DNA of 44,494 bases from the NCBI RefSeq assembly GCF_004010195.1, contig NC_057755.1, forward strand, positions 6,548,184 through 6,592,677, in the 5' to 3' direction. The notes beneath the pieces are model-generated. The model was not told where the DNA came from, did no database searches, and was given only the letters and a program-made list of their open reading frames with translations. Position numbers and translations under genes: made by a program. Source of the stretch: Chiloscyllium plagiosum. Taxonomy: Eukaryota. Shown here in pieces: positions 31,805 through 42,295 of the stretch (positions are counted from its first letter, which is position 1; every line of letters starts with the position of its first letter).

Positions 31805-31964
31805 CTCATCCTGGCTGTCCTTCTTGACCAGGTACGGGAGGTTGCGGGCAGTGGCCAACACCACATTGGCAGCCTGCTCCGTGCTCAGGAACAGGAGGAC
31901 CTTGGCAGCCAGGCGCTTGCCCTTACGGATGCACATGACCTGCACAAAATGGTCGTCNNNGGGC
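31805..31964 (-). CDS. PATL1: PATL1 exon: (R)PxDDHFVQVMCIRKGKRLAAKVLLFLSTEQAANVVLATARNLPYLVKKDSQDE
   Basis: Conserved CIRKGK motif; donor GAG|GTGAGT; 160 nt, phase 2-0; acceptor reads CGG next to NNN and a homopolymer. Confidence 0.9.
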
Positions 31965-32282: not shown

Positions 32283-32330
32283 CTGAAGGGAGACAGGTCG
32301 GATCAAAACAGGGAGACGCAGGGAGTGATT

Positions 32331-33500
32331 GAGAGAGAGAGGAGACAGACAGAGAGAGAGAGGAGACAGACAGAGAGAGAGAGGAGACAGACAGAGAGAG
32401 AGAGGAGACAGACAGAGAGAGAGAGGAGACAGACAGAGAGAGAGAGGAGACAGACAGAGAGAGAGAGGAGACAGACAGAGAGAGAGAGGAGACAGACAGA
32501 GAGAGAGAGGAGACAGACAGAGAGAGAGAGACGACAGACAGAGAGAGAGAGACGACAGACAGAGAGAGAGAGACGACAGACAGAGAGAGAGAGACGACAG
32601 ACAGAGAGAGAGAGACGACAGACAGAGAGAGAGAGACGACAGACAGAGAGAGAGAGACGACAGACAGAGAGAGAGAGACGACAGACAGAGAGAGAGAGAC
32701 GACAGACAGAGAGAGAGAGACGACAGACAGAGAGAGAGAGACGACAGACAGAGAGAGAGAGACGACAGACAGAGAGAGAGAGACGACAGACAGAGAGAGA
32801 GAGACGACAGACAGAGAGAGAGAGACGACAGACAGAGAGAGAGAGACGACAGACAGAGAGAGAGAGACGACAGACAGAGAGAGAGAGACGACAGACAGAG
32901 AGAGAGAGACGACAGACAGAGAGAGAGAGACGACAGACAGAGAGAGAGAGACGACAGACAGAGAGAGAGAGACGACAGACAGAGAGAGAGAGACGACAGA
33001 CAGAGAGAGAGAGACGACAGACAGAGAGAGAGAGACGACAGACAGAGAGAGAGAGACGACAGACAGAGAGAGAGAGACGACAGACAGAGAGAGAGAGACG
33101 ACAGACAGAGAGAGAGAGACGACAGACAGAGAGAGAGAGACGACAGACAGAGAGAGAGAGACGACAGACAGAGAGAGAGAGACGACAGACAGAGAGAGAG
33201 AGACGACAGACAGAGAGAGAGAGACGACAGACAGAGAGAGAGAGACGACAGACAGAGAGAGAGAGACGACAGACAGAGAGAGAGAGACGACAGACAGAGA
33301 GAGACAGACAGACAGAGAGAGACAGACAGAGAGCGAGAGAGAGGAGACAGAAAGTGAGAGAGGGGAGACAGACAGACAGTCAGACAGAGACAGTCAGAGA
33401 GACAGACAGAGAGAGGAGACAGAGAGAGGGGAGACAGAGATAGGGAGGAGACAGAGAGGTAGAGAGGAGAGACAGAGAGATAGAGAGGAGAGATAGAGAG

Positions 33501-33548
<48 letters not shown>
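32331..33548. repeat. 21-bp GA-rich minisatellite (~46 units) decaying into (GA)n
   Basis: Period 21; units with 'gagga' up to ~32520, then units with 'gacga'. Confidence 0.95.
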
Positions 33549-33549
<1 letters not shown>

Positions 33550-33995
33550 TCATGTCACAGGGGGTAAGCAAGACCTACACCAGGCTCCCTTATTATGGAT
33601 CAACAGTACCATGCGCCGTGCACAGAGCAGCTTGGGAAAGGGATGGGGGTGTGACGGAGTAGGCGAGAAGGTGGTGAATGGAATGCCACTCACACAAGGT
33701 GCTTGAGGGGTTGACCGAGCAGGAGATGGGGGGCGGGGGGGGGGTTGGGGGGGAGTTCACTGATGGACAAGGTGAGAAAGCTGGATTTACCCATGAGAAG
33801 AGATCCCGTAGTTGAGTGACAGGGAGGCAGCTGGATGAACATCAGTCAAGATATCATCAGTAATATGGGCGGGGGGAGGAAGGGTGCAAGAGACACGGTG
33901 GGAGGCATCAAGTACTGACTCTGGCACGCATGGCATTGATGCCAGTCCCAAAGGCCCACCCAAACCAGATGTCCACTGGGTGGGAGAGCACTTAC

Positions 33996-35855: not shown

Positions 35856-35988
35856 CTGGCCGGTAGATGTGCTCCAGCTTGGCGACCTGTGGCGTGATCA
35901 GCTTCATGCGCTCCTTCTTCTCCTTGCGGGGTCCCTCGTTGCTCAGGTCCAGGGCCGCCTGCTTCTTCTCCAGCCTCTCAAAGTAGTT
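35856..35988 (-). CDS. PATL1: PATL1 exon: [44 protein letters not shown]
   Basis: ctgtag|..G|GTAAAT, 133 nt, phase 0-1. Confidence 0.94.
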
Positions 35989-38882: not shown

Positions 38883-39063
38883 CTGATAGTAGTAATCGTC
38901 CAGGTAGGGGTCAGCGCTCTGCAGCTGCATCATTTGGATCTTGCTGACCCATTCCTTCTCACGCTGGGTCATCAGGTTGCTGTAGGGGTCCTTCTTCGCC
39001 TGCTCGTGATAGCTGCCCCTGCTGTGCCTGTCTCCTCCAGAACCATTCTGACCTCTGTGTTGA
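38883..39063 (-). CDS. PATL1: PATL1 exon: (N)[60 protein letters not shown]
   Basis: ctcag|..CAG|GTACAG, 181 nt, phase 2-0; hallmark Pat1 motif LM..REK.WV.KIQ..QL...DPY.DD.YYQ. Confidence 0.96.
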
Positions 39064-39065
39064 CT

Positions 39066-39980
39066 GAGAGAGAGCGAGAGGCAGAGAGAGCGAGAGGCAG
39101 AGAGAGCGAGAGGCAGAGAGAGCGAGAGGCAGAGAGAGCGAGAGGCAGAGAGAGCGGGAGGGCGCGAGGGGCGGAGGGCGCGAGGGGCGGAGGGCGCGAG
39201 GGGCGGAGAGCGCGAGGGGCGGAGAGCGCGAGGGGCGGAGAGCGCGAGGGGCGGAGGGCGCGAGGGGCGGAGAGCGCGAGGGGCACAGAGACAGACAGAA
39301 CGAGAGGCAGAGAGAGAGCAAGCGAGAGGCAGAGAGTGCGAGCGAGAGGCAGAGACAGAGAGAGCGAGAGGCAGAGACAGAGAGAGCGAGAGGCAGAGAC
39401 AGAGAGAGCGAGAGGCAGAGACAGAGAGAGCGAGAGGCAGAGACAGAGAGAGCGAGAGGCAGAGACAGAGAGAGCGAGAGGCAGAGACAGAGAGAGCGAG
39501 AGGCAGAGACAGAGAGAGCGAGAGGCAGAGACAGAGAGAGCGAGAGGCAGAGACAGAGAGAGCGAGAGGCAGAGACAGAGAGAGCGAGAGGCAGAGACAG
39601 AGAGAGCGAGAGGCAGAGACAGAGAGAGCGAGAGGCAGAGACAGAGAGAGCGAGAGGCAGAGACAGAGAGAGCGAGAGGCAGAGACAGAGAGAGCGAGAG
39701 GCAGAGACAGAGAGAGCGAGAGGCAGAGACAGAGAGAGCGAGAGGCAGAGACAGAGAGAGCGAGAGGCAGAGACAGAGAGAGCGAGAGGCAGAGACAGAG
39801 AGAGCGAGAGGCAGAGACAGAGAGAGCGAGAGGCAGAGACAGAGAGAGCGAGAGGCAGAGACAGAGAGAGCGAGAGGCAGAGACAGAGAGAGCGAGAGGC
39901 AGAGACAGAGAGAGCGAGAGGCAGAGACAGAGAGAGCGAGAGACAGAGACAGAGAGAGGCAGAGGCAGAGAGAGCAAGAG
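39066..39980. repeat. Compound GA-rich minisatellite (16-bp and 22-bp units) abutting the PATL1 acceptor
   Basis: 16-mers gagagagcgagaggca and agcgcgaggggcggag, then ~27 copies of agagcgagaggcagagacagag; one T (39337) in the tract. Confidence 0.95.
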
Positions 39981-40006
39981 GTAGACACCGAGAAAAAAAC
40001 ATAAGG

Positions 40007-40349
40007 TGCGAAGTGTGCGTGAGACAGACAGAGGTGAAACAATCGCTCTGTGGATTGTGAACTTGACATCCAGGATGACACCATACCGAGGAACCTCGAT
40101 TATCTGAACGACACGGCGGGGAAATGCGAAGTGTGCGTGAGACAGACAGAGGTGAAACAATCGCTCTGTGGATTGTGAACTTGACATCCGGGATGACACC
40201 ATACCGAGGAACCTCGATTATCTGAACGACACGGCGGGGAATATTTTCTTCGGACAAACAAATGCCGGATAACACAGTTTAGCTAAGTATGGGGTTTTTG
40301 GAATCTTGTCCGGATAATCCGAAATTCAGATAATCGAGGTTCCTCTGTA
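40007..40349. mobile_element. Tigger-like MITE (40204-40347) with a 118-bp tandem duplication covering its left end
   Basis: TA-c(c/a)gaggaacctcgattatctgaa inverted termini; 40007-40124 repeated at 40125-40241. Confidence 0.8.
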
Positions 40350-40679
40350 TTCAGTGAATTGATTGGACTTGCAGCTGGTTCTGCATTCCCACGTCCCCTT
40401 GGTGCTTCGGACCAGGCATTGATATGGCCACTCCACCTGCCCTGCTTTCTGAAAGAGGCAACAAATCCAGCAACATTCTCACTGATTGGGAACAAAGTTG
40501 CAGGAAGACCGGTTTATCCGTTCACTTGCAGAGTGCAAACTTTGGCATTGCTGATAAGTGAGGGATGGTAAGTCCAAGTCGGTCCCTATCGATAACAGTG
40601 AGGGGCCTTGCCTTAATGTCTCAATAGCTAGTACATTATCCCCAAGGATGGGTTTGTGGTCCAAGGTGGGGGGTAAAAT

Positions 40680-40985
40680 CCCCCCAAGGCAGGTCTAGCA
40701 TGGGGTGAGATTGAGAGCCAAGCTCCTTCTGCACTGTGTGATCAAACCCTCCCAAGACAGTTCTAGCATGGGGTGAGGCAGAGAGCCCTGTTCTCTCTCC
40801 ACCATATAATCAAACCATCCTAAAGCAGGGGCAATGGGGGATGAGATAGAGAGCCATGCTACCTCTACACTCTGTAATCAAACATTCCCAAGACAGGTCG
40901 AGCATGGGATGAGACAGACAGCCAAGGTCCTCCTACACTGTGTCATCACACACTCCCAAGGCAGGGACAGTGTGGAGTTAGATAC
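40680..40985. repeat. Degenerate ~70-75-bp tandem repeat (~4 copies)
   Basis: 'agcatggggtgaga..gagagccaagctcc..cactgt..atcaaac.ctcccaag' recurs. Confidence 0.7.
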
Positions 40986-41459
40986 AAGGTCGTGTTTAGC
41001 GCCACACACTTCCCTCAATGTGCATTCAGAGAAATCTCAACCACTCCTCACGTCATTCAAGTCAACACTCCTGTTTTCTGATCAGTACAAACATACTCAG
41101 CCCTTCTGTCTGTGGCTGGACTGGACCCAGCATGCTCGAGGGAGAGGGATTAAGTTTCTGACCTCATCACCCCTTGCTCTTTTCACCTTGCAAGGGTTCT
41201 TTGAACTTCCGTTTGAACTTCCTTTTCAGACAGGGCAATCTGGACCCAGAACTCTTAAACCTGTGAGGTCCAGTTTCCAATCCTCTGCCCAATAGGAAAC
41301 AAGTTCTCATTACTTAATCAAAACTCTTCTTGAATTTTAATGCATCAAACAAATCTGCCTTTTAATCCTCACTGTCACGAACATGCCATACCACACCAAG
41401 AGCTGCACATGAACTGAAACCCTTCGAGCCGCACACCATTGGGGTCAATCTCCTCCTCA

Positions 41460-41590
41460 CATCCTGATGAAGGGCTTCTAACTGAAACGTCGACTCTCCT
41501 GCTCTTCAGACGCTGCCTGACCTGTTGCGTTTTTTTCAGCATCACACTTTTCAACTGACACTCAAGCATCTGCAGTCCTCACTTTCGCCT
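41460..41590 (+). mobile_element. Penelope-like terminus; hammerhead core with damaged stem II
   Basis: CTGATGA-agggcttctaact-GAAACGTC|gactc at 41464-41491, then 'gctgcctgacctg..catctgcagtcctcactttc'. Confidence 0.72.
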
Positions 41591-41732
41591 TCCCACACCC
41601 TGTCAAAGCATTCAAAATCCCACTCAGATTCTGGTCCTGACGACTACTGGAGAATCTGAAATCCCTCACCACTCGGTGCTGTTCCGGTAACTTCCTATCT
41701 CGCCTTTGCTGAAGTCTGGAACCAGGAGGAAA

Positions 41733-42180
41733 GAATCATAGAATCGCTACAGCGTGGAAGCAGGCCATCGAGTCAACAGTGACCCTCTGAAAAACATCCC
41801 ATTCAGACCCACCTCCCGACGTTGTAACCCTGCATTTCGCATGACTAACCCACCAAGCCTGTACATCCCTGGACACTATGGGACAATTTAGCACGGCCAA
41901 TCCACCCTAACCTGCACATCCCTGGGCACTATGGGACAATTTAGCATAGCCAATCCCACCCTAACCTGCACATCCCTGGGCACTATGGGACAATTTAGCA
42001 TGGCCAATTCGCCTAACCTGCCCATCTTTGGACTGTGGGAGGAAGCTGGAGGACCTGGAGGAAACCCATGCAGACACGGGGAGAACACGCAAACCCCACA
42101 CCAACAGTCACCCGAGGGTGGGATCGAACCCGGGTCCCTGGCGCTGGGAGGCAGCGGCGCCAACCACTGAGCCGCCACTT
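41733..42180 (-). mobile_element. HE1-like V-SINE with internal ~52-bp triplication; head ~20 nt from a PATL1 donor
   Basis: tRNA head 'gtggcggctcagtggttggcgccgctgcctcccagcgccagggacccgggttcgatccc'; 'cacatccctgggcactatgggacaatttagca' three times. Confidence 0.88.
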
Positions 42181-42199
42181 CCTTCCGAGAGTCACTTAC

Positions 42200-42295
42200 T
42201 TCCTGGAGTTCTGCAGCTGCAGGCGTTGGTTGAGGAGCCGTCGGTGCTGGGGGTGAAGGTGGGTGGTGTCCGGCCGGAACATGGACTGGGAAGAC
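42200..42295 (-). CDS. PATL1: PATL1 exon: [31 protein letters not shown](N)
   Basis: ttccag|G..AA|GTAAGT, 96 nt, phase 2-2; matches vertebrate PATL1 [17 protein letters not shown]. Confidence 0.93.

What the first reader, a model, noticed from the sequence alone, without database searches (positions are those of the whole stretch)
39064..40047. PATL1 acceptor with a ~980-nt AG-exclusion zone and no nearby branch-point adenosine
Seen: the minisatellite starts right at the acceptor of the most conserved PATL1 exon (CAG, AG at 39065-39064). On the pre-mRNA the nearest upstream adenosines are 39337 (~270 nt away, CGCAC, poor), 39982 (UCUAC) and 40002 (CUUAU, fits yUnAy, ~940 nt away). The next upstream AG is at 40047-40046. 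Established: branch points normally lie ~18-40 nt from the AG, and distant branch points usually lie within a few hundred nt. Inference: this exon needs an extremely distant branch point with long scanning, a non-A branch nucleotide, or looping-out of the repeat.
Basis: partly seen in the sequence, partly recalled or inferred. Interest (0 to 1): 0.72.

Follow-up and report, generated by a model that had tools for sequence, protein, structure and literature searches.

The report
Adenosine-free repeat before shark PATL1 exon
A length-variable CT-rich repeat leaves no adenosine in the roughly 270 bases before an exon of the mRNA-decay gene PATL1, yet assembled RNA joins the exon at its normal site, so the intron likely branches at a cytosine close to the exon or, nearly as likely, at an adenosine hundreds of bases away.

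Summary
Observation confirmed: the minus-strand acceptor at 39064 has a 980-nt AG-free zone; its nearest adenosines lie at -274, -919 and -939. The acceptor is used: spliced contigs of two studies join exon end 42200 to 39063 letter for letter, and a third stops there. Independent contigs support a repeat abutting the AG: no difference over -1..-33 in one sample. A related species also carries an array of at least 208 nt. Length is the weak point: one individual has about 2 proximal units, not 5, and the 27 perfect 22-mers could not be checked; collapsed, the -939 A would sit near -340, inside the known range. No lariat was seen, so the branch site is unmapped. Best guess: a cytosine branch in CUG[C]C at -34/-18 (0.45); next the displaced, ancestral-looking CUUAU/U7 site (0.30) or an A inside the array (0.15). 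Looping by RNA structure is unsupported. The scan noted this layout before on other DNA (GGCX in this genome, tract re-measured here; ZNF608 in another genome). An extreme variant of known long-AG-zone introns.

The parts
42200..42295 (-). Upstream PATL1 exon; its last 30 nt are joined to 39063 in spliced contigs
39064..42199 (-). Intron, 3136 nt, GT..AG; donor GTAAGT at 42199
40046..40047 (-). Last AG upstream of the acceptor (sets the 980-nt AG-free zone)
39986..40007 (-). Candidate ancestral branch site CUUAU (A at 40002, -939) followed by U7; also present, 28 of 30 letters alike, at the upstream edge of the array in organism B
   Evidence: role inferred
39343..39936 (-). 27 perfect copies of an A-less 22-nt unit; copy number unverified
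39337..39337 (-). Lone A at -274 in a poor context (2 of 6 U2 pairs)
39165..39276 (-). GC-rich sub-array, 7 units; its proximal end also seen in contig X1
39075..39154 (-). 5 copies of a 16-nt unit, each with CUG[C]C (candidate C branches at -18, -34, -50, -66, -82); about 2 copies in X1, 3 or more in X6
39064..39066 (-). Acceptor CAG, used
38883..39063 (-). 181-nt exon, included and joined to the next exon at 35988; skipping would shift the frame

Best explanation
An A-less repeat that likely grew out of the intron's own polypyrimidine tract now separates the acceptor from every adenosine, the exon is still joined at its normal AG, and the spliceosome likely branches at a cytosine in CUG[C]C 34 or 18 bases upstream. 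Shown: the repeat, the missing A, the junction, and copy-number differences between samples. Inferred: (1) origin, because removing the array would leave CUUAU-G-U7 followed by 22 nt of tract, with the A at -39, an ordinary acceptor; (2) U2AF bound at the AG-proximal tract would place U2 at about -18 to -40, where the only sites that pair all four core positions have C as the bulged base; (3) splicing would be slower or weaker than at an A, and the lariat could resist debranching. The distant A may be used as well; this is close to a toss-up.
For: Junction 42200|39063 in 2 of 2 spliced runs (X9, X6; 30 of 30 loose letters match). No A in -3..-33 of X6 (0 differences), none in the letters shown for X1. 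CUG[C]C pairs at -3, -2, -1 and +1 (score 9); 0 of the 9 adenosines in the zone has all four core pairs, best score 8 (my simple pairing score). Human lariat data: a TRYTR^C^Y class exists, C makes up 31-33% of lariat reads, and the motif goes with the strongest tracts (PMC5378181 section 4); A 78.4%, C 8.4%, U 8.4%, and 90% of sites at 19-37 nt (PMC4315302 passages). Distant sites are described only up to about 400 nt (PMC2991248 passages). A proximal branch is indifferent to the copy-number changes seen between samples.
Against: No lariat seen. CUG[C]C occurs 36 times in the zone, so finding it in the right window follows from the repeat period and is not evidence. The two 5' positions of TRYTR^C^Y do not pair, and that motif was clearly weaker in both reporters; C is only 4.25% in an integrated set of mapped and predicted sites (PMC9636908 passages). 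In mapped long-AG-zone introns (HTR4, CLK1, MBNL1) the branch is mostly at the 5' edge of the tract, where a candidate A with U7 sits here too. The GGCX acceptor of this genome has a 547-nt A-free tract with no CUG[C]C near the AG, so this motif is not a general solution. 16 letters of X1 and 1 substitution in the last 37 nt of organism B were not displayed and could be A.
Confidence: 0.45

Rival explanations
1. The displaced ancestral site (CUUAU at 40002, with U7) still branches; step one happens without the AG and the unstructured, AG-free tract is scanned or looped to the first AG. The distance is 939 nt in this assembly, about 340 nt if the perfect blocks are really short.
For: Textbook distant-branch layout: candidate at the 5' end of the AG-free zone with a tract behind it (PMC1431707 passages; PMC2991248). 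It has the only U-run of the zone. Same site at the array edge in organism B. Tract is unstructured, so nothing blocks scanning. Gradual expansion would never have broken this route. GGCX has an A cluster at the upstream edge of its tract too (-550 and -577 to -587).
Against: The site pairs only 3 of 6 U2 positions. Verified distances reach about 400 nt, with -566 only predicted. Identity of the 20-nt site with organism B is uninformative at the 3-5% intron divergence of most X12 pieces. No skipping seen, but contigs drop rare forms.
Confidence: 0.3
2. An adenosine inside the array is used: the A at -274, or variant units with A that the assembly smoothed out or that other alleles carry.
For: -274 is inside the known range. 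Organism B has one A-bearing unit in its array (table 5c). 27 perfect copies in a gapped assembly of 101,977 contigs may be idealised. Shorter alleles bring the A closer (X1).
Against: The -274 A has the poorest context (2 of 6 pairs, no U at -2). The organism-B variant lies near the far edge. The proximal 270 nt are mixed in sequence and partly confirmed by contigs.
Confidence: 0.15
3. Artefact: the assembly lost an ordinary A at -18 to -45, or another acceptor is used.
For: The window has 905 N, and a neighbouring acceptor (31958-31960) is itself N. Some letters of X1 and X12 are unseen. An in-frame AG lies 9 nt inside the exon.
Against: X6 matches -1..-33 with 0 differences; X12 matches -1..-37 with one substitution; spliced contigs of three studies end exactly at 39063.
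Confidence: 0.05
4. RNA structure loops the repeat out and brings an upstream A close to the AG.
For: A 7-nt purine stretch at 40049-40043 can pair with the repeat unit and appears in the centroid fold.
Against: It has 32 equal partners, none above probability 0.07; the tract folds worse than all 20 shuffles (z +3.4); longest complement in the upstream exon and intron is 10 nt. Protein-bridged looping was not testable.
Confidence: 0.03

Closest known systems
Distant-branch-point exons with long AG-exclusion zones (PTB exon 11, GABBR1 exon 23, HTR4, CLK1, MBNL1; PMC1431707, PMC2991248; passages read)
   Same: Long AG-free pyrimidine zone; candidate yUnAy plus U-run at its 5' end; no conventional A.
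   Different: Zone of 980 nt against 381-590 nt for the longest in the passages read; made of a variable tandem repeat, not conserved regulatory sequence; no skipping seen; branch not mapped.
Cytosine branch points, TRYTR^C^Y class (PMC5378181 section 4; PMC4315302 and PMC6112733 passages)
   Same: YUR[C]Y core at the usual distance, C-rich tract.
   Different: 5' part of the motif does not pair; known stable C-branched lariats come mostly from 100-500-nt introns, this one is 3.1 kb; here no A is available at all.
Structure-bridged (AC)m-(GT)n introns of fish and lamprey (PMC4691745 passages)
   Same: Simple repeat right at the 3' splice site of a fish-like vertebrate.
   Different: No complementary repeat at the donor end, so not this class.

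Membership tests
Distant-branch-point exon | AG-exclusion zone of 150 nt or more | tested here: met
   980 nt in the assembly; still above 300 nt if perfect blocks are collapsed (arithmetic)
Distant-branch-point exon | Candidate A motif with adjacent pyrimidine tract at the 5' end of the zone | tested here: met
   CUUAU at -939 then U7; weak U2 pairing, 3 of 6
Distant-branch-point exon | Branch experimentally mapped at the distant A | not testable with these tools
Distant-branch-point exon | Exon alternatively spliced | tested here: inconclusive
   Only inclusion seen in X9, X17, X6; contigs drop rare forms
Distant-branch-point exon | Long zone kept in orthologues | tested here: inconclusive
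   Organism B has at least 208 nt between edge site and AG, but most letters were not displayed; no distant species seen
Cytosine branch point (TRYTR^C^Y) | YUR[C]Y core 19-37 nt from the 3' splice site | tested here: met
   CUG[C]C at -34 (and -18); expected from the repeat period
Cytosine branch point (TRYTR^C^Y) | 5' TR positions pair with U2 | tested here: not met
   4 of 6 positions pair; -4 and -5 do not
Cytosine branch point (TRYTR^C^Y) | Strong polypyrimidine tract and 3' splice site | tested here: inconclusive
   34 of the last 40 nt are pyrimidines but there is no U-run; no splice-site score was run
Cytosine branch point (TRYTR^C^Y) | Lariat mapped at C | not testable with these tools
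   No raw total-RNA reads laid
Structure-bridged repeat intron | Complementary repeat at the opposite intron end | tested here: not met
   Longest complement 10 nt, at 41113
PATL1 orthologue | PAT1-family sequence and gene neighbourhood | tested here: inconclusive
   A later exon matches human PAT1 homolog 1 at E 4e-11; an OSBP-family gene follows on the same strand; that human PATL1 neighbours OSBP is recalled; PATL2 was not compared

The most novel reading that the evidence does not exclude
The ~900-nt array is real and the spliceosome still branches at the ancestral A 939 nt from the AG in an included exon of a housekeeping gene: more than twice the longest mapped distance in the papers read, with natural alleles forming a distance series, and GGCX a second case in the same genome.
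Probability: 0.17. Interest if true: 0.75.

Novelty: new variant of a known kind. Interest (0 to 1): 0.45.

Why it matters
It is a natural test of two open limits of the major spliceosome: how far a branch point can lie from its AG, and what happens when no adenosine is on offer. The acceptor works, alleles differ in length, a relative shares the layout and a second gene shows it, so one lariat RT-PCR would decide. If the branch is a nearby C or U, it is a neat but known workaround.

Tried and rejected
Lariat or alternative-acceptor joints: none; the joint and loose-end tables were swamped by interspersed repeats (1369 joints and 4363 loose ends not shown). Contigs show presence, not absence, so this is no evidence. 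No RNA holder was on record as RNA; X9, X6 and X17 are called RNA here only because their contigs are spliced. 5 of 24 listed runs were laid (X1, X6, X9, X12, X17); the two raw single-cell runs (X21, X22) and organism C were not. X6 has unspliced pieces at both exon edges (depth 25.5 and 15.1); contig depth cannot rank, so no claim of retention. Pfam gave 0 hits for both exons at the junction. Selection against AG inside the tract: too few A to test. Conservation of the edge site: no power. Reading X12's loose end as an array-free allele was considered and thought less likely: a flank contig ending after one unit would give about 20 alignable letters, every piece listed has 31 or more, and a joint with 27 extra letters at depth 15.9 fits one contig entering an array; the tool does not link these rows, so this is inference. 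Literature searches for a repeat-filled or shark acceptor of this kind listed 1, 0, 2 and 1 papers, none on this by title or abstract start; the library lacks most subscription papers and no supplements were read.

Full report
Observation. On the minus strand the acceptor CAG has its AG at 39065-39064. With that G as -1, the next AG upstream is at 40047-40046, leaving 980 AG-free bases with nine A; the nearest are -274, -919 and -939, and six more lie at 40007-40043. The zone is a composite repeat: 27 perfect 22-mers (39936-39343), a GC-rich block of 7 units (39276-39165) and 5 copies of a 16-mer (39154-39075). The exact 32-nt two-unit word occurs only here in the genome (4 overlapping matches), and the exon is single copy. 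All 6 other acceptors of the gene that I examined have an A at -16 to -30. One of them (32283) has an even longer AG-free zone, 1290 nt, but a normal A-bearing stretch after its repeat, which shows that a long AG-free zone alone needs no unusual branch. In 400 kb of flanks only 2 A-free runs reach 100 nt and neither ends at an AG.

Gene. A later exon matches human PAT1 homolog 1 (E 4e-11), the two exons at this intron join in one open frame, and an OSBP-family gene follows on the same strand. That human PATL1 neighbours OSBP is recalled; PATL2 was not compared.

The acceptor is used. I laid 5 of 24 listed runs, all contigs. In one search the spliced contigs of X9 and X17 match 38883-39063 with 0 differences and stop at 39063. 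In one search the loose ends of X9 and X6 behind 39063 equal the last 30 nt of the upstream exon, and those before 38883 lead into the next exon. So two studies show the junction letters and a third the boundary. No other acceptor, skipping or lariat joint appeared, which is no evidence of absence.

The repeat at the AG is real but variable. X6 has an unspliced piece with 0 differences over 39034-39096 that breaks at -33, where a 31-mer graph must break for 3 or more units. X1 reaches the GC-rich block after 34 aligned letters plus a 16-letter gap, which fits 2 units exactly (reach -75); at depth 3.4 this may be a short allele or a collapsed path, 1 unit with the gap elsewhere also fits, and the 16 letters were not displayed. 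X12 (organism B) matches the last 37 nt with one undisplayed substitution and runs on for 171 letters. Another X12 piece shows the upstream flank (28 of 30 letters like 39986-40015) joined to a unit like the last one before the AG, and a joint with a 22-mer-type unit bearing one A. I read these as one contig entering an array, so that organism B has at least 208 nt between the edge site and the AG; the link is inferred. The 594-nt perfect block was not checked; the assembly has 101,977 contigs and this window 905 N. With 2 copies of each perfect unit the -939 A would be near -340.

Origin (inferred). The bases after the edge site resemble the last unit before the AG. Taking the array out leaves CUUAU-G-U7, 7 nt, and 22 nt of tract, with the A at -39: an ordinary acceptor. 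The array therefore looks like an expansion of the tract that pushed the old branch site away, begun before organisms A and B split.

Mechanism. Structure does not rescue it: the zone folds worse than 20 of 20 shuffles, the one long-range 7-bp helix has 32 partners and no register above 0.07, and the longest complement upstream is 10 nt. Two routes remain. (a) Near branch at C: each unit holds CUG[C]C, at -18, -34 and onward; it pairs the four core U2 positions, which 0 of 9 A in the zone do (my own score, U2 letters recalled). Human data hold a TRYTR^C^Y class, weak in reporters and tied to strong tracts (PMC5378181, section 4 read whole; other passages); C is 8.4% and U 8.4% of mapped sites, 90% of all at 19-37 nt (PMC4315302 passages), 4.25% in an integrated set (PMC9636908 passages); C lariats resist debranching (PMC6112733 passages). 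Against: the motif occurs 36 times, so its position proves nothing, and its 5' positions do not pair. (b) Distant A: the layout is that of distant-branch exons, whose mapped sites mostly lie at the 5' edge of the tract, up to about 400 nt, with -566 predicted in one fish (PMC1431707 passages; PMC2991248 passages). Against: weak pairing and, if the assembly is right, more than double the known distance. I put (a) at 0.45, (b) at 0.30, an A inside the array at 0.15, artefact at 0.05, looping at 0.03. Both (a) and (b) may operate.

Recurrence. I did not check its RNA. It shows the layout recurs and counts against the C motif as a general answer. A note on ZNF608 in another genome (1,085 nt) was not tested.

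Comparison and verdict. It meets the sequence criteria of distant-branch exons and the core of the C-branch class, but the defining test of each, a mapped lariat, could not be run. It is not a structure-bridged repeat intron (PMC4691745 passages). Four searches found nothing on this layout in sharks (listings only, no supplements). A real, used, extreme acceptor of a known kind with the mechanism undecided: interest 0.45; 0.75 if a 939-nt branch distance is shown (probability about 0.17).

Noticed in passing
window 32283-33574 (minus): Second PATL1 intron with a 1290-nt AG-free zone and a 1024-nt A-free TC repeat (21-nt unit), but with A at -16 to -48 after the repeat: an internal control.
   Followed up: partly
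L042:1004-1552 (G000:C42, GGCX-type gene): 547-nt A-free 8-mer array ending at an acceptor; AG-free gap 573 nt. RNA not checked.
   Followed up: partly
window 40007-40241: 118-nt tandem duplication, 99% alike, right at the upstream edge of the zone; it copies the A cluster and supplies the zone-defining AG. Real or assembly-made is unknown.
   Followed up: no
window 39056-39055 (minus): In-frame AG 9 nt inside the exon; no use seen in contigs.
   Followed up: partly
window 31958-31960: NNN falls on the acceptor of another PATL1 exon, after a C-run; that splice site is missing from the assembly.
   Followed up: no
window 35932: T>C difference in an exon shared by X9, X17 and X12 but not X1; likely an allele.
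   Followed up: no
window 42180-41850: SINE-like sequence (label by eye) starts about 20 nt after the donor of this intron, which will hamper mapping of lariat reads.
   Followed up: no
   Followed up: no
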